Sequence record: OR670491 | Strand: one strand, 5' to 3' | Length of the DNA: 64,000 nucleotides | Origin: Escherichia phage vB_EcoM_JNE01 | Shown: positions 5,913-58,987 of the stretch, one piece after another | How positions within the stretch are numbered: position 1 is the first letter of the stretch | How the letters are laid out: each line of letters begins with the position of its first letter | The notes under the pieces: model-generated | Told to the model about the DNA's origin: nothing | Databases searched by the model: none | Seen by the model: only the letters and a program-made list of their open reading frames with translations | Program-made: the position numbers and the translations under genes

Positions 5913-6116
5913 ATGATTGAAATTAATGCTGATGTATATTGTAGTGCTGCACCAAATTACTTCATTTATGCACTAAGTACTTTTGGTGATACAGAAGGTG
6001 AAACTTTTGTTTTAGTAGATAATACTACATGGTACAAAACAAGTAATAAAATTCCGAAAGATGTTTTGGAAACTTATGTTCGTATTGAAAATAAAAACAT
6101 ATATGTAAATTTATAG
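5913..6116 (+). CDS. hypothetical protein
   Basis: 67-aa ORF. Confidence 0.4.
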   Translation: MIEINADVYCSAAPNYFIYALSTFGDTEGETFVLVDNTTWYKTSNKIPKDVLETYVRIENKNIYVNL

Positions 6117-6123
6117 GTAAAAT

Positions 6124-6534
6124 ATGATTGAAATGGAAGGAACTCTGGTGTATGATCCAGATCGTGGCACTATGAAAAAGAAGAAGGACTTCTGGTTAGT
6201 ACTGCAACTTCCATTACAGTTGGTTCGATACTACCAGTACTTCATCAGAACTGACTTACATATTGATATTAAAGACCCACAATGGGGAGCACATGTCAGT
6301 ATCGTTCGTGGTGAAGTGCCACCAAATCCAGAGTACTGGAAAAAGTACGATGGTATGAAAGTTAAGATTAAGTTCGAACCTTTCATCGAAGAAGTAAAAG
6401 ACAATAAGAAACCTGGGTCATTCTTTATCATAGAGTTTGAAGATGATTTCATTGCACAAATTCGTGATGAACTTGGTTTAGCATCTAAATATTTCAAATA
6501 TCACATCACCATTGGTAGAACATACTACGATTAA
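6124..6534 (+). CDS. 2H phosphoesterase superfamily protein (LigT/cyclic phosphodiesterase-like; possibly Acb1-like)
   Basis: Two H-x-[ST]-x motifs (HVSI near residue 57, HITI near residue 127) in a 136-aa protein, the 2H hallmark. Confidence 0.5.
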   Translation: MIEMEGTLVYDPDRGTMKKKKDFWLVLQLPLQLVRYYQYFIRTDLHIDIKDPQWGAHVSIVRGEVPPNPEYWKKYDGMKVKIKFEPFIEEVKDNKKPGSFFIIEFEDDFIAQIRDELGLASKYFKYHITIGRTYYD

Positions 6535-6557
6535 TGTGGTTATTTGGTAAATAGGTC

Positions 6558-6585
6558 TTGATATAACTAAAAAGTATGCTATACT
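6558..6585 (+). promoter_or_regulatory. sigma70-like promoter (TTGATA, 16-nt spacer, TGcTATACT)
   Basis: Motif upstream of the endolysin gene. Confidence 0.4.
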
Positions 6586-6701
6586 ACTTAAATGTTCCAA
6601 AGAACAACTGAGTACTGTAGAAAGTCCAATGAGGCTTTTGCAAATGGCCTCTTTGCCCTCTTTGTGATTGCTCATTGTTAACAACCAACAAAGGAGGCGT
6701 T

Positions 6702-7628
6702 TTGAAAAAAGCGAAAAAAGCACTGAAAACTAAAATTGCCGTAGGCGTATTAGTTTCATCAGCCCTATTCGCTGCTATTGGATTTTATGGTTTTTCTCAA
6801 AGTGATCATGTACCATCATTAGACGAAAGTCAGGTGCATAATTTAAAACCACAGTTTACTCAAATTCAAAAGCAGGAACTACCACAGGTATCAGTACCAA
6901 AAGCAGTTCCAAGCAGCGAGAAACATTATACGGTTCAACCTGGAGATAGTTATTATTCTATTGCACAGAAATTTAAACCTAAAAATGTACAGATTGAAGA
7001 TTATGTCATTTTGTTGAAGAACATCAACTTAAATGCAACTCTTCATACTTCTCAGGGTATCTTTATCCCAACAAAAGAGGATTTGAAGAACGTATTGTTA
7101 CCAGATGTGACTGTACTGTTTGATTATAAAGATCCAGAAATTGTCAATCACATCAAAGAAGCTGAAGGTTCTATTGAATTTCAGTCCAAGAACAAACGAC
7201 GTTTACTTGGTGGGAAAGTTGGAGTTCCATATCGAAATTCTAAATTTTATCCGTATCGTGATATAAAAGGTAACTTCACTATTGGGTACGGACATTATCT
7301 TGGAAAGAAAGAATCAGATGCAAGTAAGTATCGTAATGGTATTACGAAGTCACAAGCACATAAACTTTTATTGTCTGACATGGAACGAACTAATAATGAT
7401 TTAGTTTTATTATTGAAGAAAAGAAATGCAACAAACCTTACGGCTGAACAGCAACGAATTTTATTTGAGATGGCATTTACATTAGGAGTTGATAAGTTAA
7501 ATACTTTCAATAAATTATGGAAAAGCGTTGATAATCAAAATGATAACAAGTTCAAAAAAGAAATTAAGAATTCTCTATGGTATCGTCAAGTAGGAAACCG
7601 TGCAGAATTGTTAGTTAGTAATTTGTAA
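6702..7628 (+). CDS. endolysin: N-terminal membrane anchor, LysM domain, T4 e-type (GH24) lysozyme domain
   Basis: TIGYGHYLGK and SLWYRQVGNRAELLV match the T4 lysozyme catalytic region; YTVQPGDSYYSIAQKF is LysM; hydrophobic IAVGVLVSSALFAAIGFYGF. Start set to TTG after AAAGGAGG; ORF track begins at 6675. Confidence 0.8.
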   Translation: MKKAKKALKTKIAVGVLVSSALFAAIGFYGFSQSDHVPSLDESQVHNLKPQFTQIQKQELPQVSVPKAVPSSEKHYTVQPGDSYYSIAQKFKPKNVQIEDYVILLKNINLNATLHTSQGIFIPTKEDLKNVLLPDVTVLFDYKDPEIVNHIKEAEGSIEFQSKNKRRLLGGKVGVPYRNSKFYPYRDIKGNFTIGYGHYLGKKESDASKYRNGITKSQAHKLLLSDMERTNNDLVLLLKKRNATNLTAEQQRILFEMAFTLGVDKLNTFNKLWKSVDNQNDNKFKKEIKNSLWYRQVGNRAELLVSNL

Positions 7629-26566: not shown

Positions 26567-26594
26567 TTGACAAGTTAAAATGATGTGATATAAT
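26567..26594 (+). promoter_or_regulatory. sigma70 promoter P1 (TTGACA, 16-nt spacer, TGaTATAAT) with A-tract upstream and TGATG/CATCA inverted repeat across the -10
   Basis: Consensus hexamers read directly. Confidence 0.55.
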
Positions 26595-38100: not shown

Positions 38101-41100
38101 CTGCACTTGTGCGTAGACTTGTTAGAATTGATGGACCTTCAACAGATAGCTCAGTTGCATTAACTGCATTAATAGTTGCAGTAGTAGATTTAAGTACTGG
38201 AAGTACGTTAGCATTAACTAAGTCAGTACTTTGAATAATACCAGCAGAAGATAGTGATTTAACACTAACATCAGCAGCACTAAGATCAACAGTGCCAGCT
38301 ACTACTAAGTTACCACCAATGTTTGCACCTTCGGTTGTTGTAATAGATTTAGCACTAACATCAGTAGTGGTTAGGTCAATAGAACCTGGAGTTACGGAAC
38401 CAGTCACTACTAGATTACCAGTTACGGTAGTGTCGTTTTTAATTTCAACACCAGCAGCATTTGCAATTGATGGAGTAGTTAGTGAACCAACGGTAGCATT
38501 ACCAGTTACATCAAGAGTAGTACCCACAGATACTGCACCAGTAGCATCGAGTGAAGCTACATTAGATGCACCACTAACATTTAGTGCGGTTACATTTGCA
38601 GTTCCAACAGTTGCTGTGGTACTATTAAGTACTGGAAGTACGTTTGCATCAGTTGCGTTAGTAGAAGTTACAATACCTGGAGTAGTTAAAGATTTAACAC
38701 TAACGTCTGCTGCACTAAGATCAACTGTACCAGCTACTACTAAGTTGCCACCGATAGATGCACCAGCAGTTGTAGATATGGATTGAGCACTAACATCAGT
38801 CGTTGATAGATCAATTGCACCTGGGGTAAGTGTACCAGTGACAGTTACATTATCAGTAAAAGTAGTGTTACCGTTAATAGTTGGTGAAGTTAGAGTTCCA
38901 GTTGATAATGAACCAGTAGTTGCTGCACCAGTTAAATTCATAGAAGAACCAGCGATAGCTACACCTTCGATATTACCAGTTACTTTCAAAGAAGAACCAG
39001 AAATAGCTGCTGCACTAACGTTACCAGTTGCAGTGATTGCACCAGCACTTACATCGGCTAGGGTACTTGCACCAGCAACACTTAGGGTTGTGGTTACATC
39101 AACTTTATTAGGAGCAATATCAAGACCATCAACGTTAGCATCTGCTACAACACCAGTTGTAGTTCCAGTTACTACTAGGTCTTTAACTGTTACTGTTTGA
39201 CCAGTTACTGTCACATTCCCGCTAAATGCACCCGCTGCACCACTTACATCACCACTGAATGTACCGTTCACACCACTTACATTACCAGTAAATGTACCAT
39301 CAACACCGCTCACATTACCACTGAACTCACCACCAACGCCTTTTACGTTACCAGTACTGGTAATTGCTCCAGAGTTTAGTGCTCCAGTCACGTTAGCAGT
39401 TCCACCAACGAGTAAGTTAGCATTAATAGTTGCACCACCAGTTGATTCTAATGATGAAGATTTAATTTCACCAGCCGCAATAACGGAATTAGGTGTTAAA
39501 TCCTGACCACTCACATCAACTGTTAGACCAGTTACGACACCAGTGAAGTCTACATCATTAAGAATGGTTTTACCATTAACTTTTAGACGAGGTGTTGCTG
39601 GGCTTTGTGTTGAGTTACCTAGAATTTCTACATAATCTAATTTGTTTAGACCTTTACCTGTAATACCATAGGTCGCAAGAGACTCATCACCAAAAGTTGC
39701 AGTTTTTTGTACAGTAAGAGTTACCGGAGCCATAGATTCAGACTGGATTTCGTTCTGTAGTAGAACTGTTGGACGTTGACCTGCTGCGGAATAACCAAAA
39801 CCTAGTTTAACGTCAGCATTTGCAACGTTTTGACCAAGGGTAATGGCTTTAACAGTTGCAGTTGTGTTGTTACCAGTGATGTTTGCACCTAATGTAACTG
39901 CTCCGTTAAGACCAGTAGCACCACTTACGTTCAAACTGGTAGCCTGGATATCATCTAAATCAAATGTACCACCTAATGTTCCAGAAACATTGATGTTATT
40001 GAAGTTTGCAGTACCAGTACTTTCAATATTAGGTAATGTTGCAGTTCCAGTTACTTCTAAATCAGTGACCTTAGTTAGTCCTTTGGTTACTTCGAGTAAA
40101 GGAGTACTAGGATCTTGTGTTAAGTTACCACTAATAGTTACATAATCTAATTTGTTTAGACCTTTACTTGCGATACTATAGGTGGAAAGAGATTCATCAC
40201 CAAACGTCGCACTTTTTAGTACGTTTAGGTTAGTTGGTGACATTAATTCGGTTTGAATTTCGTTTTGTAGAACTACAGTTGGGCGAAGCCCTGCCGCTGA
40301 ATATGTAAAACTCAAGCGATCAGTACTACTTGCTGCGTTAGCACCCAATTTAATGTCTTTGAATGTCGCAGTTGTATTGATACCAGTGATGTTTGCACCT
40401 AATGTAACTGCTCCGTTAAGACCAGAAGCACCACTTACGTTCAATGAAGTTGCATTAATGTCATCAAGACTGAATGTACCACCAAGAACACCATTTATGT
40501 TAATATCATTGAAGTTAGCTGTACCAGTACTTTCAATATTAGGAATAGTAGCAGAACCAGTTACTTCGAAATCAGTTACTTTAGTTAAACCTTTAGTAAC
40601 TTCAAGTAAAGGAGTAGTTGGTGATTGAACTGTGTTACCACTAATAGATACATAATCTAATTTGTTTAGACCTTTACCTGTGATACCGTAAGTATCGAGA
40701 GACTCATCACCAAATGTTGCAGTTTTGAGTACGTTTAGGTTTGTTGGTGACATTAATTCAGATTGAATTTCGTTCTGTAGAACAACTGTAGGTCGTTGAC
40801 CTGATGCTGAATAGGTAAAACTCAAGCGATAAGTACTGCTTGCTGAGTTTGCACCCAATTTAATGTCTTTGAATGTCGCAGTACTATTGATACCAGTAAC
40901 GTTAGCACCAAATGTAACAGCACCTTGTAAACCAGAAGCACCACTTACGTTCAATGTAGTTGCATTAATGTCATCAAGGCTGAATGTACCGCCTAGTGTA
41001 CCACTAATATTAACATCTTTGAAGTTTGCTGTACCAGTGCCAGTGATAGTTTCACTAGAAATTGCAGTGATTGTTGCTTCATTTGCAGTTAATTTATCAA

Positions 41101-41536
41101 AAGCAGCAGTTGTGCCTACACCAGCAGTGATGTTACCATCAAATTGTGTAGTTCCGGTGACTTCTAATTGGTCAACTGTTGTGTTTTTAAGAACAGCAGA
41201 ACCAGCAGTTTGATTAATATCGTTGGCAAATGACGCAGTGCCGTTAAAAGATGCATTGGAGTTAACAGTTGCAGTATCAGAACCGACAACAGCATCACCA
41301 ATTACAGAATTACCTTTAATATCTACGCCACCATTAAGAGATGCTTTACCAGCTACGTCTAGGGTAGAAGTGATATTAGCAGTTGCTGCTTCAATTGCAG
41401 TAAATGTTGCATTTGCGAAAGAAACTGTACCATTTACGGTTACATTTTTCTCAAATACAGCATTACCTTTAACCAAAAGATCTTTATTTACCGTAGCACC
41501 ACCAGTAACATCTAGATCCGTCTTTATAGAGTACAT
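35174..41536 (-). CDS. giant repeat-rich tail fibre protein (2120 aa)
   Basis: T/S/G/N/V-rich; three tandem ~165-aa repeats near the N-terminus (LGGTFSLDDINAT ... GKGLNKLDYV); both termini near-identical to the next gene; AATGGAGGG SD. Confidence 0.7.
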   Translation of the reverse strand: MYSIKTDLDVTGGATVNKDLLVKGNAVFEKNVTVNGTVSFANATFTAIEAATANITSTLDVAGKASLNGGVDIKGNSVIGDAVVGSDTATVNSNASFNGTASFANDINQTAGSAVLKNTTVDQLEVTGTTQFDGNITAGVGTTAAFDKLTANEATITAISSETITGTGTANFKDVNISGTLGGTFSLDDINATTLNVSGASGLQGAVTFGANVTGINSTATFKDIKLGANSASSTYRLSFTYSASGQRPTVVLQNEIQSELMSPTNLNVLKTATFGDESLDTYGITGKGLNKLDYVSISGNTVQSPTTPLLEVTKGLTKVTDFEVTGSATIPNIESTGTANFNDININGVLGGTFSLDDINATSLNVSGASGLNGAVTLGANITGINTTATFKDIKLGANAASSTDRLSFTYSAAGLRPTVVLQNEIQTELMSPTNLNVLKSATFGDESLSTYSIASKGLNKLDYVTISGNLTQDPSTPLLEVTKGLTKVTDLEVTGTATLPNIESTGTANFNNINVSGTLGGTFDLDDIQATSLNVSGATGLNGAVTLGANITGNNTTATVKAITLGQNVANADVKLGFGYSAAGQRPTVLLQNEIQSESMAPVTLTVQKTATFGDESLATYGITGKGLNKLDYVEILGNSTQSPATPRLKVNGKTILNDVDFTGVVTGLTVDVSGQDLTPNSVIAAGEIKSSSLESTGGATINANLLVGGTANVTGALNSGAITSTGNVKGVGGEFSGNVSGVDGTFTGNVSGVNGTFSGDVSGAAGAFSGNVTVTGQTVTVKDLVVTGTTTGVVADANVDGLDIAPNKVDVTTTLSVAGASTLADVSAGAITATGNVSAAAISGSSLKVTGNIEGVAIAGSSMNLTGAATTGSLSTGTLTSPTINGNTTFTDNVTVTGTLTPGAIDLSTTDVSAQSISTTAGASIGGNLVVAGTVDLSAADVSVKSLTTPGIVTSTNATDANVLPVLNSTTATVGTANVTALNVSGASNVASLDATGAVSVGTTLDVTGNATVGSLTTPSIANAAGVEIKNDTTVTGNLVVTGSVTPGSIDLTTTDVSAKSITTTEGANIGGNLVVAGTVDLSAADVSVKSLSSAGIIQSTDLVNANVLPVLKSTTATINAVNATELSVEGPSILTSLRTSADAVIGTSLTVSGQATAVSLVTPTISNETGVEIASNTKVTGDLTVTGTVTPGAIDLATTDVSAKSITTTGGANIGGDLVVAGTFDLSASDVTANTLASVGNTTVGADLVLTTGNVTGSPAVSGNLSVAGTSTLTGAATVGNKLTVNTGGIQVVAGGVRVDTGSITAQGANISGTATLENASVTSNAAVGGTLGVTGAATLNGGLTSSALTVTGDSVVQKLTVKGEFIPEGGLDLSGADITANSLDVATTLKATGLSTLSGGVSTTDISGSGKITTVDAQTGTLTVTGNQTVGGTLGVTGKATTGSLDTGAVSATSGTFSSTLGVTGAATFADAVTVNGVFTPVGGLDLSTSDITANSLDVATTIKSTAGATIGGDSTIAGTLGVTGAVSAPSLTLSNASGTGLDVKGNAIVAGTLSTTGAVTLGNTLGVTGKATTGSLDTGAVSATSIVGTAGLTMAGNSSFTNDLTVSGTFTPAGGLDLTTSDIVAKSLSTSAAIHSDTNGTFGGTLGVTSNATVGGTLGVTGAVSAPSLALSSASGDALTVAADAKVTGKVTSGSLETGTVKTGANLVVGVKVGEQPETVQIFPDTFIAGKLRVEGGINADIDVSGQTLEPYAIEASATLSAVGNISTDAAVIANSGTFGAVGSQNNNLTVNGNVVTTGNFTVGGVLYANVDQSNADVNVKSLTSTNLVKGGSMQSTGNLTVGGAATITGTLGSGAITSTGKVKGVDGEFSGNVSGVGGTFTGAVTVGTTLGVTGAATVGGTLGVTGKATLAEASVTNLTTSGTATIGSTLAVTGTSTLAAVNISGALTTTGSVTLGDAAADVITVNGTSTFIEKATFEKGIEVAGVFTTDEANFVTTSVTTKKYDVIPSQVTSSTVAPAGTWTPDGSTSVYFITLDQNTTLAPIAGLIGGGKAASIFMYAKQDATGNRVLTADPSYSIVDGEQNLAANSVTIYQAVYDGVSNVIDLFIAQRTS
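39540..41040 (-). repeat. three tandem ~500-bp intragenic repeats in giant fibre gene 1
   Basis: Repeated DNA such as CATAATCTAATTTGTTTAGACCTTTACCTG near 39641, 40141 and 40661; boundaries approximate. Confidence 0.55.
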
Positions 41537-41570
41537 ATAGTTCCCTCCATTTTGGGTTATTAAAATACCA

Positions 41571-44600: not shown

Positions 44601-46561
44601 CCTAATGTACCACCAACTGTAGCATTACTCACTACATGAAGACCAGTACCAGATGCACCATTTAGTGTTAGATACCCTGCCGATGCTGCACCAGATATAG
44701 TTGCTGAACTTGCATTAACAGCAGCCAATGTGGTTTCACCAGCAACACTTAGTGTTGTTGTTACATCAACTTTATTAGGAGCAATATCAAGGCCATCTAC
44801 GTCGGCTACGGCGGTTACACCAGTTGTGGTTCCAGTTACTACTAGATCCTTAACAGTTACTGTTTGGCCTTGTACGGTTACATTACCATCTAAAATACTA
44901 TCTCCAGTTACACCTAATGTTCCACCAAGAGACGTTCCACCTGTGACTTCTAGATAGCCAGCAGTGGTTTTGCCAGTAGAAGTTAATGTTGTTCCCTGAA
45001 TACCAGACGTTGCAGTTACGGAGTTAGGAGTTAGATCCTGCCCACTAACATCAACAGTTAGGCCAGTAACAGTTCCTGTGAATTCTACATCACCTAGAAC
45101 CGATTTACCAGCAACAGAAAGTTGTGGAGTTCCTGGAGCTTGAGTAGCGTTACCAGCGATTTCTAGATAATCTAGTTTGTTTAGACCTTTACCTGTGATA
45201 CCATATGTTGCTAGTGAAGCATCACCAAAGGTTGCAGTTTTCTGAACAGTTAATGTAGCAGGAGACATTAATTCAGATTGAATTTCGTTCTGTAGAAGAA
45301 CAGTTGGGCGTTGACCAACGGCAGTATAAGCAAAACCAACTTTGGTATCAGCACTTGCAGATGCTGGACCTAGGTTTAGTGCTTTAATATTTGCAGTAGT
45401 GTTAGTACCACTGATATTACCACCTAGAGTTACAGAACCTTCAAGACTAGTTAGGCCAGATACTTTTAGTGTTTGTGCTTCGATATCACCTAAACTGAAT
45501 GTACCACCAAGAACACCACTTACGTTAATGTTATTGAAGTTTGCAGTGCCAGTACTTTCAATATTAGGAATAGTAGCAGAACCAGTTACTTCGAAATCAG
45601 TTACTTTAGTTAAACCTTTAGTAACTTCAAGTAAAGGGGTAGCTGGTGATTGAACTGCGTTACCACTAATAGTTACATAATCTAATTTGTTTAGACCATT
45701 ACCAGTGATACCAAAAGTACTTAAAGATGCATCACCAAAAGTAGCAGACTTAAGAACAGTTAGGGATGCTGGAGACATTAGCTCGGACTGAATTTCGTTT
45801 TGTAGAATTACAGTTGGGCGTTGGCCTGGTGCGGTATAAGTGAAGCTTAAACGGTAAGCACTGCTTGCGGAGTTAGCACCGATTTTGACATCTTTAAATG
45901 TTGCAGTTGTGTTGATACCAGTGATGTTCGCACCTAGAGTAACAGCACCCTGTAGGCTACTTTGACCAGACACAGTTAGGGTAGTTGCGTTTACATCAGA
46001 AAGACTGAATGCACCACCTAGTGTACCACTTATGGTAACATCGTTAAAGCTGGCTGTACCAGTACTATTAATGTCGGTTGCATTTAAAGTTGCAATAGTT
46101 GCTTCGTTTGCAGATAGTTTATCAAATGCAGCAGTAGTTCCTGCGTCAGCATTAATATTACCTTTAAAAGTTGAAATTCCATCAACTGATAGTGAGTCAA
46201 CAGATGTTGCTTTCAAATCAACATTACCAGCAGTTTGACGAATATTACCACCAAATGAAACACCAGAGTTAAAAGTTGCTGCGGAGTTAATTGTAGCAGT
46301 ATCAGTACCTGGTGCTACTGCACCAATCACAGTGCTACCTACCACTTCAACACCACCATTAAGAGATGCTTTACCAGCTACATCTAGGGTAGAAGTGATA
46401 TTAGCAGTTGCTGCTTCAATTGCAGTGAATGTAGCATTTGCAAAAGAAACTGTACCATTTACGGTAAGATTCTTATTGAATACTGCATCACCTTTAACTA
46501 ATAGATCTTTACCGACTACAGCACCACCAGTAATATCTAGATCAGTTTTAATCGAGTACAT
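41675..46561 (-). CDS. giant repeat-rich tail fibre protein, paralog (1628 aa)
   Basis: Same N-terminus (MYSIKTDLD) and C-terminal ~100 aa as gene 1; two copies of the ~165-aa repeat; AATGGAGGG SD. Confidence 0.7.
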   Translation of the reverse strand: MYSIKTDLDITGGAVVGKDLLVKGDAVFNKNLTVNGTVSFANATFTAIEAATANITSTLDVAGKASLNGGVEVVGSTVIGAVAPGTDTATINSAATFNSGVSFGGNIRQTAGNVDLKATSVDSLSVDGISTFKGNINADAGTTAAFDKLSANEATIATLNATDINSTGTASFNDVTISGTLGGAFSLSDVNATTLTVSGQSSLQGAVTLGANITGINTTATFKDVKIGANSASSAYRLSFTYTAPGQRPTVILQNEIQSELMSPASLTVLKSATFGDASLSTFGITGNGLNKLDYVTISGNAVQSPATPLLEVTKGLTKVTDFEVTGSATIPNIESTGTANFNNINVSGVLGGTFSLGDIEAQTLKVSGLTSLEGSVTLGGNISGTNTTANIKALNLGPASASADTKVGFAYTAVGQRPTVLLQNEIQSELMSPATLTVQKTATFGDASLATYGITGKGLNKLDYLEIAGNATQAPGTPQLSVAGKSVLGDVEFTGTVTGLTVDVSGQDLTPNSVTATSGIQGTTLTSTGKTTAGYLEVTGGTSLGGTLGVTGDSILDGNVTVQGQTVTVKDLVVTGTTTGVTAVADVDGLDIAPNKVDVTTTLSVAGETTLAAVNASSATISGAASAGYLTLNGASGTGLHVVSNATVGGTLGVTGAVTLGNSLGVSGKATAGSLEVTGAATVGSLTAPTISGNTTFANDVTITGTLTPSGIDLSTTDVSAASLTTTGNVTVGGSLAVSGAIDLSSADVTAKSITATNPSTFGVVNASSVVASGDVSGGTITTTGAAKVGTLTSTGVVSGSRLSSTTATISTSVTTPTVQAGASGAGTLNLASNVVAAKDLTVTGVFTPQGGLDLSSVDITSNSITTTEGATIGGNLSVAGTVDLSGADVSALSFVSTDALKTNTFPKLSSTDSTLGAAKATTLNVSGESTVANINTSNISASGSLDVVGASTLAAVSATAIDASSVAATGAISGASFTAPGATVEISKSTNVTGDFHASGTLTAGAIDLSTTDVSVKSLNSLGNAHVAGNLTVDGTFDLSGTNLQAATLASTGNTTVGADLVLTTGVITGAPVISGNTTVGGTLGVTGTTSLAGLTAGASTLSSASVTTTLGVTGTSTLGVVQAGATSVSTLSTSGKATAASLEVTGATVAKGNVTVEGTLIPQGGLDLTGADVSANSLSSSTTLSVTGLSTLSGGISTADINATSLTASGTVGAGVLSSTGNTTVGGTLGVTGATTVADLTASGAVKTGTSFTVGTPLAVQPETVHIVPDTYIAGKLRVDGGINADIDVSGQTLEPFAIAADSTVSAVGNITSGATMIAKAATIGDSGSLNNNLTVNGNVVTNGDFTVTGVLNAQLNQADSDVAVKSLTATNNVNAGTSISAGTTITATGKITGGSLETGSTLAVTGLASLNGGVAVTGAATFSENLSVQSEISTASITTTGLATLASVAVTGSATFTGTLTANGNVVLGDAAADTITVNGTATFKENVVIDKALTVTGALNTTDADFTTSTVITKKYSVLPTSVVASTASVSGTWTPDGSSNVYRLTLDQNTTLAPITGLIGSGEACSVYIYVTPTVSDAVLTIPAEYAVVSGQVSSVVNQVSIIQVVYDGFSTVFDTFIAQRV
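45080..46080 (-). repeat. two tandem ~500-bp intragenic repeats in giant fibre gene 2
   Basis: Repeat core near 45160 and 45675; some ~130-nt stretches near-identical to gene 1. Confidence 0.5.
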
Positions 46562-46603
46562 TTAGTTCCCTCCATTTGAATGATTATAAACATAACCATT
46601 CTC

Positions 46604-53725: not shown

Positions 53726-55069
53726 TTATTTGTCAGTGAAAGTTATCTTCCAGTATCCTTGACGGTATTGAGACATAATACTATTATGCCATTTGAATTT
53801 GTCATTATAACGATAATAGTGGCTGTCAGTACGGTTGTAAACATAGTTGTGTACTGTTAGCGGATCTATCAATTCAACACCATCATTTGTTATTTTAAAC
53901 AAAGCGTATGCTGGAATTTCTGTATCTTTATAAACGATGCCATGTATAGTGTTATTTACATAATATTGTTCAGGTATAGCGTTATATAATTCAGATGATT
54001 TCGTTACAAATCCAGTCAACGTATAATCAACACGGTAATTAGTGCTGTCAAGTTGGACTACAATCTTATTCGCTTCTGCATCTTCACCATAAGATGTGAT
54101 GACACCCTTAAGCGGATTATCTTCTTCAATTGCTTGTTGGAATTTGATACCAATTTTCTTATTTTTGTATTCAGGTTCCAAATACTCCATGTATTTTTCC
54201 CAAGAATAGATATTTCCACTTGGTGTGATTGGGTTCATAGACTGACTTACTAAAGTAAGAACATAACTATCAGGGATAGAAAGTCTAGAGTCAGTAATTT
54301 CATCAACTTTAATACATAGATTCTTTGGAGTAAACACATCAGTGATTATATCAGTGAAGTTTCCAAATTCCATATCAAATTCATCAATACCACTTTGAAT
54401 ATTCGTTGTGATTTGTTGAATAAGTTTTGGTTTCTCTACAATAGCTGGTAGAGAGAACCAGATTGTTGTTTCAAAAGTTAGAACCATGATATCTAAATCG
54501 GTATCAGTACCCTGTGGGAATCCACGAGTACTGAATTGACAATCGATTAACTCAACATCACTAAGAGAAGTCCAATCCAATGGGTTCTCGGTAAGCTGTA
54601 ACTGAATACTCGGTGCAAACAAAGTTGAGATCTGTTCGAACAATTCCATTTTTGTTTGTGTTTGAGTAACCCAAATATTCAAATCAAACGTAAATGTCCA
54701 AGGCACAGGGTTGTGCCTAGTTACTTTATGTTGCTTATCTAACTTCTTAGTATATTCGTTCTGTGCTGGTGACTCATTAGTACCGAAGATAATAGTTTCA
54801 TTTGCGTTAGAACGAATACTTTTCCTATCCATCTTAAGTTGGTTTACACTAATAGTCATGATTGGTGCTGATGGTAATACGTTTTCACTGTTACCATTGA
54901 TAATAGCAGCAGCCAAACGTGAAATGTCAGCATATCTACATGGAACTTTCTTATATTTCGCCTTCCCTTCACTATCGATTCCGTTCTGAACTTGAAATTC
55001 ACCAAAAACACGAATCAAATGTTTCAGTACTCGACGAAATTGTCCATCATAATAATAATCTACTTTCAT
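53726..55069 (-). CDS. T4 gp15-like tail completion / sheath stabiliser protein (extended)
   Basis: N-terminal region collinear with T4 gp15 as recalled: FRR ... KYKKVP ... NPVPWTFTFDLNIWVTQTQTKMELFEQISTLFAPS. Confidence 0.5.
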   Translation of the reverse strand: MKVDYYYDGQFRRVLKHLIRVFGEFQVQNGIDSEGKAKYKKVPCRYADISRLAAAIINGNSENVLPSAPIMTISVNQLKMDRKSIRSNANETIIFGTNESPAQNEYTKKLDKQHKVTRHNPVPWTFTFDLNIWVTQTQTKMELFEQISTLFAPSIQLQLTENPLDWTSLSDVELIDCQFSTRGFPQGTDTDLDIMVLTFETTIWFSLPAIVEKPKLIQQITTNIQSGIDEFDMEFGNFTDIITDVFTPKNLCIKVDEITDSRLSIPDSYVLTLVSQSMNPITPSGNIYSWEKYMEYLEPEYKNKKIGIKFQQAIEEDNPLKGVITSYGEDAEANKIVVQLDSTNYRVDYTLTGFVTKSSELYNAIPEQYYVNNTIHGIVYKDTEIPAYALFKITNDGVELIDPLTVHNYVYNRTDSHYYRYNDKFKWHNSIMSQYRQGYWKITFTDK

Positions 55070-56556
55070 TCGCTATCCTTATGTACTCTATATACAATGT
55101 TTGGTTTAACTGCGTCATGCAACGGAACTCTGTTTGGATTATTCACAAACGAAGTTAGTGCTAGGTCTGCACCTTCCCACGGTTTTCTTCCACCATAATC
55201 GAAAATTACCCAAGAATTCTTATCAGCACTGTATTCCCATAGTGTTACTGGTGTGTAATCAGTTCTATAGAAGAATTCCCCATCAGAAACATCAGTTGGG
55301 AACTCAGTTCCTTCACCAACAGTTCCACGAGCCGGAGGAATACGAGGACGATAGTCTTGTTGTGAGTCAATGTTGCCATAAACACTATTAGAAGTGAAAG
55401 CATCATTCACGTAAGTTACTTCTGGTAGCTGCCACTCACCATCTCTGTACTGATAAATGGTAGGAACAACATATTTTATGTAAAAATCATCAACCCCTTG
55501 CGGTGGTGTATCTTCTGTTGTATACTGCACATCACAGTTGAGCCACTTTTTAGAAGATTTGTCGTATTGATAGAGAGAATATCCGGTTATATCAGATTCA
55601 TTCTCTTTAAAGAAGAAATCTCCGTCACTTGGCTTACGTGGGAACAGTGTTCCGTTAATAACTGAAACATCTTCCCATGTGCCATTGACAAGTTCTTTCA
55701 GTACTGGTAAACTCTTCTTCAAGAAATACATTTTATCGGCTGGTTCTCCTGGGAATTCATATCCATTGAGAACAAATTTGGATAAATCCATAGTATCGGG
55801 TCTGTCATCAAATAGATGTTCGTTGGTAAAGTGAATATAAGGTACTTCGTCATCAGCTTGCATAATGATACGGTTCATAATATCCATTTCATTACCGTAG
55901 TTGCTGTTTTCGGAGCCGCCATCTGTGTTACCATTACCATTGTTTGGATCATCTGGGTTATCAGGGTAGTTATTGTTGTCAAGTAGCTCTGAATATTCAG
56001 GTGAATCGGTAAGTGGTTTAACACGGAGTTTAAAAATGTGATGTTGCCATGTAACTGAGTAACCTTCAGATGTTCTAAACGCATCTTGTACTACATAGAA
56101 GCGGTTAAGACCTGAATCTTTACCAATTACATCAAAATCACGAAGGTTAGGAAGTTCAATAACATCGCCTGGCATTATTTTTCTTCCCAAGCGTTGCATC
56201 ATAGTGTTATAATGAACTGTAATATCCATTGTGTTAAAGTTAAAGAACAACCCAGGGATTTTTAAATCAGGAGTTGCTTCTTGGACTTGATAAACACAGC
56301 TAAATGTGATAGCCTCTAAGTTGTAGTTACGATTAGGAGTATCACCAAAAATTAAATCACCAATGCTTGACACGGTGCTATCATTTGTGAGATAATCTCC
56401 ACCGTAAGATAAATCAGTGTTGTCGGCAACTTGTTTTGCCCCAACATACGCGTAGAGCCACATGTCTACGCCGCCGATGTTGTACTGTTCGGCTATGGCA
56501 GAATCAATAAACTGATAGTCTTTGGTTCTACCTTTCTTCCACATTTTATATGCCAT
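55066..56556 (-). CDS. hypothetical virion protein
   Basis: Start set to internal ATG with GGAG SD; ATGA overlap with the downstream gene. Confidence 0.45.
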   Translation of the reverse strand: MAYKMWKKGRTKDYQFIDSAIAEQYNIGGVDMWLYAYVGAKQVADNTDLSYGGDYLTNDSTVSSIGDLIFGDTPNRNYNLEAITFSCVYQVQEATPDLKIPGLFFNFNTMDITVHYNTMMQRLGRKIMPGDVIELPNLRDFDVIGKDSGLNRFYVVQDAFRTSEGYSVTWQHHIFKLRVKPLTDSPEYSELLDNNNYPDNPDDPNNGNGNTDGGSENSNYGNEMDIMNRIIMQADDEVPYIHFTNEHLFDDRPDTMDLSKFVLNGYEFPGEPADKMYFLKKSLPVLKELVNGTWEDVSVINGTLFPRKPSDGDFFFKENESDITGYSLYQYDKSSKKWLNCDVQYTTEDTPPQGVDDFYIKYVVPTIYQYRDGEWQLPEVTYVNDAFTSNSVYGNIDSQQDYRPRIPPARGTVGEGTEFPTDVSDGEFFYRTDYTPVTLWEYSADKNSWVIFDYGGRKPWEGADLALTSFVNNPNRVPLHDAVKPNIVYRVHKDSE

Positions 56557-56599
56557 TGTTCGTCTCCAAAATAAATCGGGTATATCTCTATTTACCTTG

Positions 56600-56627
56600 T
56601 TGACAACAGCAAATAATGTGATATAAT
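56600..56627 (+). promoter_or_regulatory. sigma70 promoter (TTGACA, 16-nt spacer, TGaTATAAT) with ATGTGAT/ATCACAT inverted repeat
   Basis: Same GTGATATAATG core as P1/P2; drives the ClpA-like gene. Confidence 0.5.
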
Positions 56628-56667
56628 GTTTATTAATTAGAGTGAGTTTAATCACATAGGAGAACAC

Positions 56668-58953
56668 ATGAACCTGACACAACTATTCAAGAAAAGCGAC
56701 GAACTGGCAACCTCTATGGGTCATACTTTTTTGACAATTGACCATGTGAGTGCTACAGTACTGACAGTTGATAGCATTGTTGACGTATTCAAGTCGATGG
56801 ACATTGACGCTGCAAAGCTTCATGCACGTTTGATTGATTATTTGAAAAACAACCCAGTTCCACCAGCACCAAAAAGTACTTTAGATGATGACTCGAACCG
56901 TACTTCACTTCTAGTGAATCGCGTGATGCAGGAACTGTCTAAAAAAGCAGTGATTGAACAGCTAAATCGTGATGATTTCTCCATTGATGCATATTTTGTT
57001 CTGTTTGAATGTTTGTCCTTCCCAAATACTGCATTCGAAGCAGTACTGAAAGAAGAAGGGGTTTCTTGTACTGAAGTAGCACGTACACTACAGAAACATG
57101 TAGAAGATATTGATACTGGCATCAACCTAAAAAGTATTAGCGACGAACCAACAGGGGACAAAAAAGTGGCTCAACAGCAACCAGCATCTAAGCAGAAAAG
57201 TTTGGAAGATTACACTACCAACCTTACCGCACTAGCGAAGGAAGGTAAACTCGACCCAATGATTGGTCGTCAAAAAGAGCTTGCTTCTCTCGTTGAGACT
57301 CTTGCTCGTAAAACTAAGAAGAACGCAATCCTAACTGGTGAAGCTGGCGTAGGTAAAACTCAAATCGTTGATGGTTTGGCACAAGCAATCGCAAATGGTG
57401 ATGTTCCAGAGCATCTAAAAGATGTGGAACTACTGTCTCTGAACGTTGGTGCACTAACTGCTGGTACAAAATACCGTGGTGAGTTTGAAGAACGCATTGA
57501 CAATCTTCTAAAAGAACTGAAGAAACGCGAAAACACCATCGTCTTCATCGATGAAATCCATATCATGGTTGGTGCTGGTTCTGCGAGCAACGGTTCAATG
57601 GATATGAGCAACATGCTCAAACCTGCTCTATCTCGTGGTGAGATTCGTGTCATCGGTGCAACCACTTATGACGAATATCGTAAAAACATCGAGAAAGACA
57701 GTGCTCTATCACGTCGTTTTATGAAAATTGATGTTGTTGAACCAACAGTTGAAGAAACTCGTGAAATTATCAACGGTCTACAAAAGACTTATGAGAAATT
57801 CCACAATGTAACCTTCACTAAAGGTGCGATGGATGCAGTTATTACACTAAGTGATAAGTTCCTGAAGAACAAACACTTCCCTGACAAAGCAATCGACCTA
57901 ATGGATGCGTCAGCAGCGAAGAAACGTTCTCGTGACAATGGTAATGAAATTACTGTTGGTGATATCCAAGAAGTTGTTGCTGGAATCGCTAACCTAGACC
58001 TGAACGTAGTTGCTTGTACTGAAAGTGAGCGTATGCGTAGTCTTCCTGATGCACTTCGTTCTCGTGTATATGGTCAAGAAGAAGCAGTAACTAAATTGGT
58101 TGATAACGTGATGGTTGCTCGTGCAGGTCTACGTGAATCTTCCAGTGTTCAGGGTGCATTCATGTTTGTTGGACCATCTGGTACTGGTAAAACTGAAATC
58201 ACCAAAGCGTTGGCTGATGCAACTGGTTCTAAACTGATTCGTTTCGATATGTCTGAGTTCTCTCAAGAACACACTGTGTCTAAACTGATTGGTTCACCTC
58301 CAGGTTATGTTGGTCACGATTCTGGTAATGGCCTACTACTAGACCAGATTGAGCAATACCCGAATGCAGTGCTGCTACTTGATGAAATCGAGAAAGCAGA
58401 TCGTAAAGTACTGTTGACTTTCCTTCAAGTTCTTGATGAAGGTCGTCTAACTGGTTCTCAAGGTAAGACTGTTTACTTCAACAACGTAACTGTTGTTATG
58501 ACAACTAACCTTGGTGCAGCAGACTCTACAAAACGTAGTATCGGTATGAGTGGTAGTGATACAGCACAGGATAAAGCGATTAAAGCTTTCCTACCGCCTG
58601 AATTCATCAACCGTATCGACAGTATCGTTACATTCAATGATTTGTCTTCTGATGCAATTCAGAGTATCATTGATAAATTCATGGGTAGTTTGAACGAACA
58701 AGTTAAAGACCGTGGTGTTAAGGTTTCTCTAACTAAAGCGGCTCGTGAATGGTTGGCGAAGAATGGCGTTAAGAACGGAATGGGTGCTCGTCCAATGAAA
58801 CGTACCATTGAACAGAATATCCGTGTTCCTCTGGCGAAAGAAATGCTTTGTGGTTCACTGGTTGATGGCGGTTCAGTAACATTTGATGTTATCAACGGTT
58901 CACTAGGCATTAAGCCAAAGCGTGTTAAAGCAGCAGATAAAGTAGAAGCGTAA
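56668..58953 (+). CDS. clpA: ClpA-like AAA+ unfoldase (N-domain, D1, D2, ClpP-docking loop)
   Basis: D1 GEAGVGKT / VFIDEIH / ALSRRF; D2 GPSGTGKT / LLLDEIEKAD / PPEFINRID; IGM tripeptide where ClpA has IGL; 761 aa. Confidence 0.85.
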   Translation: MNLTQLFKKSDELATSMGHTFLTIDHVSATVLTVDSIVDVFKSMDIDAAKLHARLIDYLKNNPVPPAPKSTLDDDSNRTSLLVNRVMQELSKKAVIEQLNRDDFSIDAYFVLFECLSFPNTAFEAVLKEEGVSCTEVARTLQKHVEDIDTGINLKSISDEPTGDKKVAQQQPASKQKSLEDYTTNLTALAKEGKLDPMIGRQKELASLVETLARKTKKNAILTGEAGVGKTQIVDGLAQAIANGDVPEHLKDVELLSLNVGALTAGTKYRGEFEERIDNLLKELKKRENTIVFIDEIHIMVGAGSASNGSMDMSNMLKPALSRGEIRVIGATTYDEYRKNIEKDSALSRRFMKIDVVEPTVEETREIINGLQKTYEKFHNVTFTKGAMDAVITLSDKFLKNKHFPDKAIDLMDASAAKKRSRDNGNEITVGDIQEVVAGIANLDLNVVACTESERMRSLPDALRSRVYGQEEAVTKLVDNVMVARAGLRESSSVQGAFMFVGPSGTGKTEITKALADATGSKLIRFDMSEFSQEHTVSKLIGSPPGYVGHDSGNGLLLDQIEQYPNAVLLLDEIEKADRKVLLTFLQVLDEGRLTGSQGKTVYFNNVTVVMTTNLGAADSTKRSIGMSGSDTAQDKAIKAFLPPEFINRIDSIVTFNDLSSDAIQSIIDKFMGSLNEQVKDRGVKVSLTKAAREWLAKNGVKNGMGARPMKRTIEQNIRVPLAKEMLCGSLVDGGSVTFDVINGSLGIKPKRVKAADKVEA

Positions 58954-58987
58954 AAAAGAAAAGGAGAGCATATGCTCTCCTTTTTTA
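58954..58987. terminator. bidirectional terminator (palindrome GGAGAGCATATGCTCTCC)
   Basis: Perfect palindrome with A-run/T-run flanks. Confidence 0.7.

What the first reader, a model, noticed from the sequence alone, without database searches (positions are those of the whole stretch)
56600..58953. Full-length ClpA-like unfoldase with a ClpP-docking loop but no ClpP gene in the window
The 761-aa product has the complete ClpA architecture, including an IGM tripeptide at the position of the ClpP-binding IGL loop. It is expressed from a consensus promoter carrying an inverted repeat. A phage ClpA could redirect host ClpP proteolysis or remodel virion components.
Basis: partly seen in the sequence, partly recalled or inferred. 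Interest (0 to 1): 0.5.

Follow-up and report, generated by a model that had tools for sequence, protein, structure and literature searches.

The report
Jumbo phage ClpA with distant partners
This is the already-annotated ClpA-type protein-unfolding motor of a Rak2/121Q-like jumbo coliphage; the "missing" ClpP protease and a ClpS-type adaptor are encoded elsewhere in the same genome lineage, and the only unusual feature is that its ClpP-docking loop is far more variable in this phage clade than in other ClpA/ClpX proteins.

Summary
The ORF is real (56668-58953, +, 761 aa) and is a full-length ClpA-type double-ring AAA+ unfoldase. It has a Clp N-domain, D1 and D2 with every catalytic and pore-loop motif intact, and no ClpB-type middle domain. 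IGM sits where E. coli ClpA has IGL. A perfect extended -10 sigma-70 promoter precedes it; the claimed inverted repeat is chance-level.

The window is a Rak2/121Q-like jumbo coliphage, about 99% identical to Escherichia phage Turkey5. The gene is already annotated as ClpA-like in dozens of genomes and mentioned in the literature.

"No ClpP in the window" is true but is a window artefact. The near-identical genome, and the other clade genomes I examined, encode a ClpP with an intact Ser-His-Asp triad about 90 kb away, plus a ClpS-domain protein.

ClpA homologs were not detected in two published virion proteomes.

New here: in 111 clade members the docking tripeptide is among the most variable AAA+ positions (third residue M/L/V/A/F/G/I/H). 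In 58 more divergent viral homologs Gly-Phe is invariant. The clade's ClpP has a remodelled docking pocket (L114G throughout).

Most likely this is the unfoldase of a phage-encoded ClpA-ClpP-ClpS system, not a hijacker of host ClpP. Function is untested.

The parts
56600..56627 (+). Sigma-70-type promoter of clpA: -35 TTGACA (56600-05), 16-nt spacer, extended -10 TGnTATAAT (56619-27)
   Evidence: 12/12 match. The extended -10 is conserved upstream of clpA in 7 phages of at least 4 genera, while the -35 drifts. It belongs to a genome-wide class of 123 near-consensus sites.
56589..56594 (-). TAAATA (reads TATTTA on + strand): candidate T4-like late promoter of the divergently transcribed virion gene (55066-56556, -)
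   Evidence: The block is invariant in the 7-phage alignment of the intergenic region. An ATAAATA late motif was described for structural genes of CBB/GAP32 (PMC5259590). This is an inference.
56658..56662 (+). Ribosome-binding site AGGAG, 5 nt before the ATG
   Evidence: Sequence read directly; GGAG is conserved in all homologous loci.
56668..58953 (+). clpA-like gene, 761 aa (stop included)
   Evidence: The protein is 100% identical to the NCBI entry 'hypothetical protein [Escherichia phage vB_EcoM_JNE01]'.
56668..57111 (+). N-domain (aa 1-148), double Clp-N repeat, very divergent; followed by a low-confidence linker (aa ~149-180)
   Evidence: Profile vs ClpA N-domain: hhalign 96%, PDB E=7e-7. 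AF2 model pLDDT 79.5, eight helices. Foldseek hits ClpC1, ClpA and ClpB N-domains, prob 1.00, TM ~0.68-0.70 normalised to target.
57208..58011 (+). D1 AAA+ module (aa ~181-448): Walker A GEAGVGKT, pore loop KYR, Walker B FIDEIH, Arg fingers RR, lid
   Evidence: The key catalytic residues have ~0 bits entropy in 111 clade members.
58012..58626 (+). D2 AAA+ large domain (aa ~449-653): Walker A GPSGTGKT, pore loop GYVG, Walker B LLLDEIEKA, sensor-1 TTN
58540..58548 (+). IGM tripeptide (aa 625-627) at the tip of the D2 helix-loop-helix, at the position of ClpA IGL
   Evidence: Alignment. Clade census: pos1 I/M/L/V, pos2 G93 S9 N8 A1, pos3 M58 L12 V12 A9 F9 G7 I3 H1. Entropy is at the 85th and 93rd percentile.
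58642..58881 (+). D2 small domain (aa 659-738) with sensor-2 GARP
   Evidence: Pfam ClpB_D2-small, 78.8 bits; GARP is invariant.
58959..58984 (.). Hairpin flanked by an A-tract and a T-tract, shaped like a bidirectional intrinsic terminator, shared with the convergent giant virion gene (stop at 58988, - strand)
   Evidence: 11-bp stem. An equivalent hairpin follows clpA in all 7 homologous loci, and it is annotated as a terminator in phage Munch.

Best explanation
The gene encodes the ATP-driven unfoldase of a phage-encoded Clp proteolytic system that is scattered around the roughly 350-kb genome. The parts are this ClpA-like hexameric motor, a catalytically competent phage ClpP about 90 kb away, and a ClpS-domain adaptor-like protein.

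Proposed mechanism:
- Host RNA polymerase transcribes clpA from its own sigma-70-type promoter, so before or independently of the flanking late virion genes (inferred).
- The protein is not packaged into virions, judging from homologs.
- It uses the conserved KYR and GYVG pore loops and both ATPase rings to unfold substrates. It most likely feeds them into the phage ClpP through a lineage-specific, non-canonical docking contact: loop [I/L/M/V]-[G/S/N]-[M/V/L...] against a ClpP pocket carrying G114 and a polar residue at position 82.
- The ClpS-like protein possibly selects the substrates.

Shown: identity, architecture, intact catalytic motifs, presence and co-occurrence of the partners, promoter and terminator conservation, loop variability, pocket remodelling.

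Inferred: the physical pairing, the timing of expression, and the substrates (host proteins, or quality control during a very large protein-synthesis load).
For: Identity and intact motifs.

Partners:
- ClpP in Turkey5: Pfam 140.6 bits and triad S113/H139/D188. The triad is intact in all 13 paired genomes and in all other viral ClpPs examined.
- The ClpS core is verified by profile: PDB ClpS E=2e-9, hhalign 96%, 7 of 7 members hit Pfam ClpS.
- This ClpA is the only Clp/Hsp100 ATPase found in the genome; there is no ClpX.
- 45 records appear in all three top-60 hit lists.

Docking interface:
- The phage ClpP pocket differs from E. coli at Y60T, F82S, F112L and L114G. G114 is present in every clade ClpP. 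The pocket residue list comes from bioRxiv 10.1101/820209.
- In ClpX, I268L and F270L severely impair ClpP binding (Amor 2019, as cited in PMC7112951), so docking is side-chain sensitive. A ClpP with a changed pocket may therefore fit host IGF/IGL loops poorly and need its own partner. This step is inference.
- Loop length, flanking helices and a hydrophobic first residue are conserved.
- There are hints of compensation. IGV in RaK2 goes with Y82 and F112; IGG in Hallingskeid and EJP2 goes with Y189.

Context:
- The extended -10 promoter and the terminator are conserved.
- ClpA homologs CBB_235 and phAPEC6 gp246c are absent from virion mass-spectrometry tables that include their flanking genes.
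Against: - No experiment on any member was found.
- The third tripeptide residue is among the least constrained positions (93rd percentile). It includes Ala, Gly and His, and the Gly is replaced by Asn or Ser in one subclade. That pattern could equally mean docking to ClpP has been relaxed or lost.
- The apparent loop-pocket compensation rests on three lineages without phylogenetic correction.
- The three genes are not linked in an operon.
- ClpP and ClpS for the window's own genome are inferred from a 99%-identical relative, not seen directly.
- Early or middle timing rests on promoter type only.
Confidence: 0.5

Rival explanations
1. ClpP-independent unfoldase or chaperone. In this clade the motor works on its own, as E. 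coli ClpA can when it remodels RepA. It might help fold or assemble tail and baseplate proteins such as the adjacent ~3,300-aa virion protein. The docking loop is a decaying relic. The phage ClpP acts separately.
For: - The docking tripeptide is at the 85th-93rd percentile of variability, while the key catalytic residues of every ATPase and pore motif are at or near 0 bits. Gly-Phe is invariant in 58 more divergent viral homologs.
- Gly is lost in the MNM/MSM subclade, and the third residue is Ala or Gly in others.
- The fourth loop residue, I620, which inserts into the pocket in E. coli, is a polar residue or Gly in the clade.
- The gene's position is invariant, on its own strand inside the tail/baseplate module, in at least four genera.
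- Iyer et al. [quoted passage not shown]
Against: - The loop keeps its length and a hydrophobic first residue in 110 of 111 sequences.
- A ClpP with an intact triad and conserved N-terminal gating residues, and a ClpS-domain protein, are retained together with it everywhere examined.
- ClpS adaptors are only known to serve ClpA/ClpC-ClpP proteolysis (own knowledge).
- The gene uses a sigma-70-type promoter, not the late promoter of the structural genes around it.
- Other non-structural genes, such as a NUDIX hydrolase, also sit in this module.
Confidence: 0.25
2. One reading: the phage ClpA docks onto host E. coli ClpP through IGM and redirects host proteolysis.
For: - IGM is chemically close to the IGL of host ClpA.
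- The gene is probably expressed by host RNA polymerase early in infection.
- Mixed use of host and phage ClpP is not excluded.
Against: - The lineage carries its own ClpP, which makes hijacking unnecessary.
- Close relatives infecting the same or similar hosts have IGV, IGA, IGG, MNM and LGH. That is hard to reconcile with selection to fit one conserved enterobacterial ClpP pocket.
- In ClpX, even I268L and F270L strongly reduce ClpP binding.
- The hydrophobic fourth residue I620 is replaced by Ser.
Confidence: 0.15
3. Virion-associated or ejected protein that acts on entry, suggested by its location among virion genes.
For: It is flanked on both sides by genes whose products are found in virions.
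Against: - The homologs CBB_235 and phAPEC6 gp246c are absent from virion mass-spectrometry lists in which the immediate neighbours were detected with many peptides.
- It lies on the opposite strand and has a different promoter class.
Confidence: 0.03

Closest known systems
E. coli ClpA (the ClpAPS N-degron protease; PDB 1ksf, 6w1z, 7uiv)
   Same: - Same domain order and length: N-domain, D1, D2, D2-small, and no middle domain.
- All Walker A/B, sensor, Arg-finger, KYR and GYVG residues are present.
- The helix-loop-helix with a hydrophobic-Gly-hydrophobic tip sits at the same place.
- It is partnered in the genome lineage by a ClpP and a ClpS-domain protein.
   Different: - Only about 42% identity, and the N-domain is barely recognisable by sequence.
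- It scores below NCBI's ClpA equivalog cut-off (755.5 vs 993.15).
- The tripeptide is IGM followed by Ser instead of IGL-Ile, and the position is highly variable across the clade.
- The partner genes are dispersed, about 90 kb away on either side, rather than arranged as a clpS-clpA operon.
Orthologs in Rak2-like jumbo phages: 121Q gp581 'ClpA-like protein', RaK2 ORF069, CBB_235, GAP32, phAPEC6 gp246c, Munch_261; PHROG 4871
   Same: - The same gene: 60-100% identity, identical synteny, the same promoter and terminator layout, and a full-length PHROG match at 1014 bits.
- The exact protein is deposited for phage vB_EcoM_JNE01.
   Different: Nothing of substance. Only the tripeptide variant differs between subclades.
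Other viral ClpA-like proteins (e.g. Agrobacterium phage Atu_ph07 gp292, Pseudomonas phage Paride, many IMG/VR contigs)
   Same: Double-ring ClpA-type proteins in large phages, sometimes alongside ClpP, ClpS or ClpX.
   Different: They are about 35-48% identical. All 63 loci examined (58 distinct sequences) carry a canonical [I/L/V]-G-F tripeptide. In the viral ClpP loci collected outside the Rak2 clade (from different contigs), most keep L114 and an aromatic at position 82.
ClpB/Hsp104 and ClpC
   Same: The same Hsp100 double AAA+ core, with strong profile scores.
   Different: - ClpB models align in two pieces because the coiled-coil middle domain is missing here.
- ClpB lacks a ClpP-docking loop.
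- ClpC has a short middle domain and a [V/L]GF tripeptide (own knowledge).

Membership tests
ClpA-type (class I, ClpP-partnered) Hsp100 unfoldase | N-terminal double Clp-N repeat domain | tested here: met
   Profile vs the E. coli ClpA N-domain gives hhalign 96% and PDB E=7e-7, for repeat 1 only. The AF2 model (pLDDT 79.5) has 8 helices, and Foldseek hits Clp N-domains with prob 1.00 over ~145 columns. The single-sequence Pfam Clp_N score is 19.7, below the 20.7 cut-off.
ClpA-type (class I, ClpP-partnered) Hsp100 unfoldase | Two AAA+ modules with intact Walker A/B, sensor-1/2 and Arg fingers | tested here: met
   Residue-level alignment with E. coli ClpA. The key catalytic residues have ~0 bits entropy across 111 clade members.
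ClpA-type (class I, ClpP-partnered) Hsp100 unfoldase | Pore-1 loops KYR (D1) and GYVG (D2) | tested here: met
   GTKYRGEFE and PPGYVGHD are present and conserved.
ClpA-type (class I, ClpP-partnered) Hsp100 unfoldase | No coiled-coil middle domain between D1 and D2 (this separates it from ClpB/Hsp104 and ClpC) | tested here: met
   The ClpA model and structure align in one stretch; ClpB, ClpC and Hsp104 align in two. There is no insertion relative to E. coli ClpA.
ClpA-type (class I, ClpP-partnered) Hsp100 unfoldase | Canonical [L/I/V]-G-[F/L] ClpP-docking tripeptide on the D2 helix-loop-helix | tested here: not met
   The loop is present at the right place, but the tripeptide is I-G-M followed by Ser. 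Across the clade the third residue is M/L/V/A/F/G/I/H, and the Gly is N or S in one subclade. I therefore file it as ClpA-like in architecture, not as a canonical ClpA.
ClpA-type (class I, ClpP-partnered) Hsp100 unfoldase | Physical binding and activation of ClpP | not testable with these tools
   No complex prediction or biochemistry is available. Only indirect evidence exists: co-occurrence and pocket changes.
NCBIfam TIGR02639 ClpA (equivalog of bacterial ClpA) | Whole-protein score above the curated cut-off | tested here: not met
   755.5 bits against a cut-off of 993.15; PRK11034 scores 654.9 against 1350. Database hits fall from 794 bits or more within the phage clade to about 583 bits for the next clusters, which look like cellular ClpA.
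PHROG 4871 'ATP-dependent protease' (phage ClpA-like family) | Full-length profile match | tested here: met
   1013.9 bits, residues 2-755 on profile positions 11-761 of 764.
ClpB/Hsp104 disaggregase | Middle (M) coiled-coil domain | tested here: not met
   ClpB profiles and structures align in two separate stretches with the M-domain region unmatched.
ClpP peptidase (partner, in the 99%-identical genome) | Pfam CLP_protease above cut-off, and the Ser-His-Asp triad | tested here: met
   140.6 bits against 20.2, with S113/H139/D188. The triad is present in all 13 paired genomes. It matches the clpP models (150-153 bits) much better than the ClpP-related head-maturation model (51.8 bits). A separate gp21-like prohead protease is annotated.
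ClpP peptidase (partner, in the 99%-identical genome) | Conserved hydrophobic IGF/IGL-binding pocket (L23, L48, F49, A52, Y60, Y62, F82, I90, M92, F112, L114, L189) | tested here: not met
   Only Y62 and M92 are identical. The changes include Y60T, F82S, F112L and L114G, with G114 in the whole clade.
ClpS adaptor (partner, in the 99%-identical genome) | ClpS core domain | tested here: met
   The single sequence scores below the Pfam cut-off (19.2 vs 23). The 7-member profile hits E. coli ClpS structures at E=2e-9, hhalign gives 96%, and 7 of 7 members match Pfam ClpS, best 6e-15.
ClpS adaptor (partner, in the 99%-identical genome) | N-degron pocket and ClpA-N-domain contact residues | tested here: inconclusive
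   In the hhalign register, D35, T38 and E79 are kept, while N34D, D36P, M40A, H66N and K84F differ. The list of functional residues is from my own knowledge and was not confirmed in a paper read here (one search did not list them). The protein also has about 70 extra N-terminal and about 40 extra C-terminal residues.

The most novel reading that the evidence does not exclude
The Rak2-like jumbo phages carry a private, insulated Clp protease. Their ClpA docking loop and their ClpP pocket have co-diverged away from the universal [L/I/V]-G-[F/L] / Y60-F82-L114 interface. As a result, phage ClpA pairs with phage ClpP but not with host ClpP, and phage ClpP is not captured by host ClpX or ClpA. This would give the phage an orthogonal degradation channel, programmed by its own ClpS-like adaptor, that runs in parallel with host proteostasis.
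Probability: 0.3. Interest if true: 0.6.

Novelty: already known. Interest (0 to 1): 0.33.

Why it matters
As a gene it is ordinary. ClpA-like genes of Rak2/121Q-type jumbo phages are annotated in dozens of genomes and noted in comparative papers. The apparent anomaly, an unfoldase without a protease, disappears once the whole genome is considered.

Two things remain of some value:
- The lineage encodes all three parts of a ClpAPS-type system, yet no function has been tested.
- The usually near-invariant AAA+-ClpP docking contact is strikingly unconstrained here, and it is paired with a remodelled ClpP pocket.

If this reflects a re-specified interface, it would be a natural example of an orthogonal unfoldase-peptidase pair. 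It would also give a handle on how docking specificity is encoded, which matters for ClpP-targeting antibiotics and for engineering degradation systems. If instead it reflects decay, it would show a ClpA lineage turning into a stand-alone chaperone.

Tried and rejected
Searches that gave little:
- The ClpS-like protein as a single sequence gave no hit against PDB. The question was resolved only with a 7-member profile.
- The search for related loci with the ClpS-like protein returned only one locus, 121Q.
- The search for homologous proteins with the N-domain alone returned two fragments. The full-length query was needed.
- No paper was found on transcriptomics of these phages.
- PMC9035409 did not contain the search terms used, and PMC9663308 did not list the ClpS/N-domain contact residues.

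Readings rejected:
- Inverted-repeat operator: 19% of shuffles do as well, it is not conserved, and the upstream arm is not transcribed.
- ClpB-type disaggregase: there is no M-domain.
- Virion or ejected protein: the homologs were not detected in two virion proteomes.
- The RefSeq label 'head maturation protease' for the ClpP homolog: it fits genuine ClpP models about three times better than the head-maturation model, and a separate gp21-like prohead protease exists. The single-peptide detection of CBB_104 in virions is weak.
- The second 'ClpP' (203 aa) and the 'protease subunit' (200 aa) of Turkey5 as firm partners: they have only faint matches, 22 bits to CLP_protease and about 19 bits to HslV.
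- The listed 538-aa TTG-start ORF that overlaps the clpA start: it is an over-extension. The annotated start of that gene is the ATG at 56556.
Full report
OBSERVATION. The window contains a single long ORF at 56668-58953 on the + strand (761 aa, ATG start), preceded by AGGAG at 56658-62. That promoter is TTGACA, 16 nt, then TGnTATAAT, matching 12 of 12 positions with an extended -10.

The 'inverted repeat' is not supported. The repeat finder reported none. The longest perfect pair is 7 nt, ATGTGAT at 56616-22 and ATCACAT at 56651-57. An equal or longer one arises in 384 of 2000 shuffles of the region. It is shared only with the closest genus. Its upstream arm overlaps the extended -10, so it would not be in the transcript.

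A hairpin flanked by an A-tract and a T-tract (58959-58984) lies between the clpA stop and the stop of the convergent giant gene.

IDENTITY AND ARCHITECTURE. Pfam finds AAA (D1), AAA_lid_9, AAA_2 (D2) and ClpB_D2-small. The NCBIfam ClpA model aligns residues 2-740 in a single stretch, whereas the ClpB, ClpV, ClpK and ClpG models align in two. The best solved relative is E. coli ClpA, E=1.6e-180, aligned 16-739 against 19-733. There is no middle domain, so it is not ClpB-like or ClpC-like.

A residue-level alignment with authentic E. coli K-12 ClpA and six phage orthologs shows every functional motif:
- D1: Walker A GEAGVGKT, pore loop KYR, Walker B FIDEIH, sensor-1 and the RR fingers.
- D2: Walker A GPSGTGKT, GYVG, LLLDEIEKA, TTN, the NR finger and GARP.

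In 111 distinct clade members the key catalytic residues of these motifs have essentially zero entropy.

The N-terminal 148 residues are very divergent. Even so, a seven-sequence profile matches the isolated ClpA N-domain (hhalign 96%, PDB E=7e-7, repeat 1). An AlphaFold model built with 27 sequences (mean pLDDT 79.5) has eight helices and hits ClpC1, ClpA and ClpB N-domains with probability 1.00. So 'complete ClpA architecture' is correct.

Overall identity to E. coli ClpA is only about 42%, and the score (755.5) is below NCBI's equivalog cut-off of 993.15.

WHERE IT COMES FROM, AND WHAT IS ALREADY KNOWN. The region is 99.3% identical to Escherichia phage Turkey5 (351 kb). The whole window maps to Turkey5 108724-171825 at about 99%, apart from one replaced segment. 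The exact protein is deposited as a hypothetical protein of phage vB_EcoM_JNE01.

Orthologs at 60-88% identity occur in 121Q (gp581, 'ClpA-like protein'), PBECO4, phAPEC6, RaK2, K64-1, Munch, GAP32, CBB, Serratia BF, and the Erwinia, Yersinia and Xanthomonas relatives. The family is PHROG 4871 (1014 bits).

The literature already notes it. Attai et al. [quoted passage not shown] Iyer et al. 2021 list ClpA/ClpX as possible translocases or assembly aids, and phage ClpP and ClpS as likely tools against host proteins (PMC7824862). I found no experimental work.

In the protein database the clade is discrete. Hits run from 100% down to about 52% identity (794 bits or more), then drop to about 583 bits and 41-42% identity for large unnamed ~760-aa clusters that look like cellular ClpA.

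THE 'MISSING' ClpP. The window itself has no ClpP, ClpS or ClpX homolog (tblastn with E. coli and phage queries). I fetched the entire Turkey5 genome.

ClpP. The genome has a ClpP at 74424-75119. It scores 140.6 bits on Pfam CLP_protease, covering profile positions 2-179 of 182, and is 36% identical to E. coli ClpP. The triad is S113/H139/D188, and the N-terminal gating segment is conserved. It fits clpP models about three times better than the ClpP-related head-maturation model. A separate gp21-like prohead protease is annotated.

Weaker candidates. There is also a very divergent ClpP-fold protein and a faint HslV-like protein.

ClpS. A 181-aa 'ClpS' lies at 249084-249629. As a single sequence it is below the Pfam cut-off (19.2 vs 23). 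A seven-genus profile hits E. coli ClpS structures at E=2e-9, hhalign gives 96%, and all seven members match Pfam ClpS. The ClpS core (about 74-139) is embedded between conserved phage-specific N- and C-terminal extensions.

This ClpA is the only Clp/Hsp100 ATPase in the genome.

Co-occurrence. The three genes co-occur across the clade. For example, Munch has ClpP on direct inspection.

Caveat: for the window's own genome these partners are inferred from the 99%-identical relative.

CONTEXT. In every genus examined the gene sits alone on its strand. On one side are a virion structural gene and the gp3-like tail-sheath stabiliser; on the other is a ~3,300-aa virion protein followed by baseplate genes.

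The extended -10 (TGnTATAAT) is conserved upstream of clpA in all seven phages, while the -35 drifts. In CBB, XbC2 and Yen9-04 the -35 reads TGGAACG, resembling the 'divergent RpoD-like' TGAAACG class that the CBB paper associates with replication genes.

The related genome has 38 perfect sites and 123 sites with at most one mismatch to the sigma-70 consensus, almost all on one strand, against 14-24 in three shuffled genomes. This is the phage's general host-polymerase promoter class, not a special feature of clpA.

The same intergenic region holds an invariant TAAATA on the opposite strand. That is a plausible T4-like late promoter for the divergent structural gene. I infer that clpA is expressed early or middle, and separately from its late neighbours.

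Published virion proteomes list CBB_233, 234, 236 and 237 but not CBB_235. They list phAPEC6 gp244, gp245 and gp248 but not gp246c. CBB_235 and gp246c are the ClpA orthologs. The protein therefore does not appear to be a virion component.

THE DOCKING LOOP. IGM aligns with ClpA I617-G618-L619, but the clade-level picture undercuts its use as evidence.
- Among 80 viral ClpA-like loci, all 63 outside the Rak2 clade read [I/L/V]-G-F. All 17 inside it read IGM, LGM, MGM, VGM, IGV, MNM or MSM.
- In 111 distinct clade proteins, position 1 is I49 M33 L23 V5 T1; position 2 is G93 S9 N8 A1; position 3 is M58 L12 V12 A9 F9 G7 I3 H1. The fourth residue, Ile in E. coli, is S, G, T, D or A.
- Entropy at positions 1 and 3 is at the 85th and 93rd percentile of 566 AAA+ columns. 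In 58 other viral homologs that are more divergent overall (49% vs 65% mean pairwise identity), Gly and Phe are invariant.
- The deepest clade members (52-58% identity) mostly keep IGF, VGF or IGL, so the relaxation appears to be derived.
- Loop length, the flanking helices and a hydrophobic first residue are retained.

THE ClpP POCKET. The ClpAP cryo-EM paper lists the pocket as A52, L48, F49 and F82, plus L23, Y60, Y62, I90, M92, F112, L114 and L189, and states that I620 also inserts. Only Y62 and M92 are identical in the phage ClpP. The changes include Y60T, F82S, F112L and L114G.

G114 is present in every clade ClpP, and position 82 is S, N or C in most. Most other viral ClpPs keep L114 and an aromatic at 82.

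In 13 genomes where both proteins could be paired:
- Met at loop position 3 goes with small or polar residues at 82.
- RaK2 (IGV) has Y82 and F112.
- Hallingskeid and EJP2 (IGG) have Y189.

This is suggestive of compensation, but it rests on three lineages without phylogenetic correction.

In ClpX even I268L and F270L severely impair ClpP binding (Amor 2019, as cited in PMC7112951), so docking is side-chain sensitive.

MECHANISM. I am confident (about 0.97) that this is an active ClpA-type ATP-dependent unfoldase.

The most likely role (0.5) is as the motor of a phage-encoded ClpA-ClpP(-ClpS) system. The reasoning is as follows. A ClpP with an intact triad and conserved gating residues needs an AAA+ activator. 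Its pocket is changed in ways that may fit host IGF/IGL loops poorly, which is inference. The only phage-encoded Clp ATPase is this protein. A ClpS-domain protein, known only to serve ClpA/ClpC-ClpP proteolysis (own knowledge), is retained with them.

The main rival (0.25) is that docking has decayed and the protein acts alone as a chaperone, perhaps for the tail/baseplate module in which it is embedded. It is also hard to square with IGV, IGA, IGG, MNM and LGH variants in phages of similar hosts. A virion role is unlikely (0.03).

COMPARISON AND NOVELTY. It works like ClpA, and it belongs to the phage family PHROG 4871. It is not an equivalog of bacterial ClpA: the score is below the cut-off, and the canonical tripeptide is not met. 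The gene, its ClpP and ClpS companions, and their conservation in Rak2-like phages are already recorded in databases and papers, so the finding as given is already known.

What I did not find described in the papers I searched is the clade-specific loss of constraint on the docking tripeptide, together with the remodelled ClpP pocket. That is a modest, testable lead rather than a discovery.

LIMITS.
- There is no experimental data, and no complex modelling was possible.
- Expression timing is inferred from promoter class.
- The partners are seen in relatives, not in the window's own genome.
- The functional-residue list for ClpS comes from my own knowledge.

Noticed in passing
window 62838-62865 (+): A perfect TTGACA-16-TATAAT consensus promoter, without the TG extension, lies antisense inside the giant - strand virion gene. 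No ORF follows it. Roughly 0.06 perfect sites per strand would be expected by chance in 64 kb (my estimate), yet the + strand has five. It could drive an antisense transcript.
   Followed up: partly
window 8629, 26567, 26659 (+) and 11 near-consensus sites: There are further perfect or one-mismatch sigma-70 consensus promoters, all on the + strand and none on the - strand. Two perfect copies lie only 92 nt apart, at 26567 and 26659.
   Followed up: no
window 6111-7591: This segment is only 78% identical to Turkey5, while the flanks are 98.6-99%. It covers ORFs 6124-6534 and 6675-7628; the second corresponds to the gene Turkey5 annotates as endolysin. It looks like a mosaic replacement of the lysis-gene region between near-identical strains.
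   Followed up: partly
window ~39060-41560 and ~44730-46580 (- strand genes): Two neighbouring very large virion genes (Turkey5 XMR01800 and XMR01801) share segments of about 1.0-1.4 kb at 75-80% identity. There is also an internal ~0.9-kb repeat, about 39605-40530 vs 40115-41038. These are paralogous modules, possibly fibre or receptor-binding repeats.
   Followed up: partly
window 55066-56682 (-): The mechanical ORF list extends this virion gene to a TTG at 56682, overlapping the clpA start. The annotated start in Turkey5 corresponds to the ATG at 56556 (496 aa), which leaves a 111-nt divergent-promoter region.
   Followed up: yes
L007:3570-4629 (Turkey5 248570-249629), outside the window: The ClpS-like gene lies immediately downstream of a translation initiation factor IF-3 homolog in Turkey5, RaK2, Hallingskeid and Munch. 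In one Erwinia phage a DnaJ-like gene follows it. The ClpS core carries conserved extra N-terminal (~70 aa) and C-terminal (~40 aa) regions of unknown function.
   Followed up: partly
L003:29140-29751 and L003:31141-31743 (Turkey5 78140-78751, 80141-80743), outside the window: Within about 6 kb downstream of the phage clpP lie two more putative protease-like genes. One is a very divergent ClpP/NfeD-fold protein with a hydrophobic N-terminus; its Ser and His align with the ClpP catalytic residues. The other is a faint HslV-like protein.
   Followed up: partly
L008/L009 (Turkey5 ~330000-345700), outside the window: There is a run of about 14 consecutive - strand genes annotated as RCC1 / HERC1-like / Kelch repeat proteins. 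It matches the multi-copy RCC1-like genes noted for 121Q and PBECO4 in PMC5259590.
   Followed up: no
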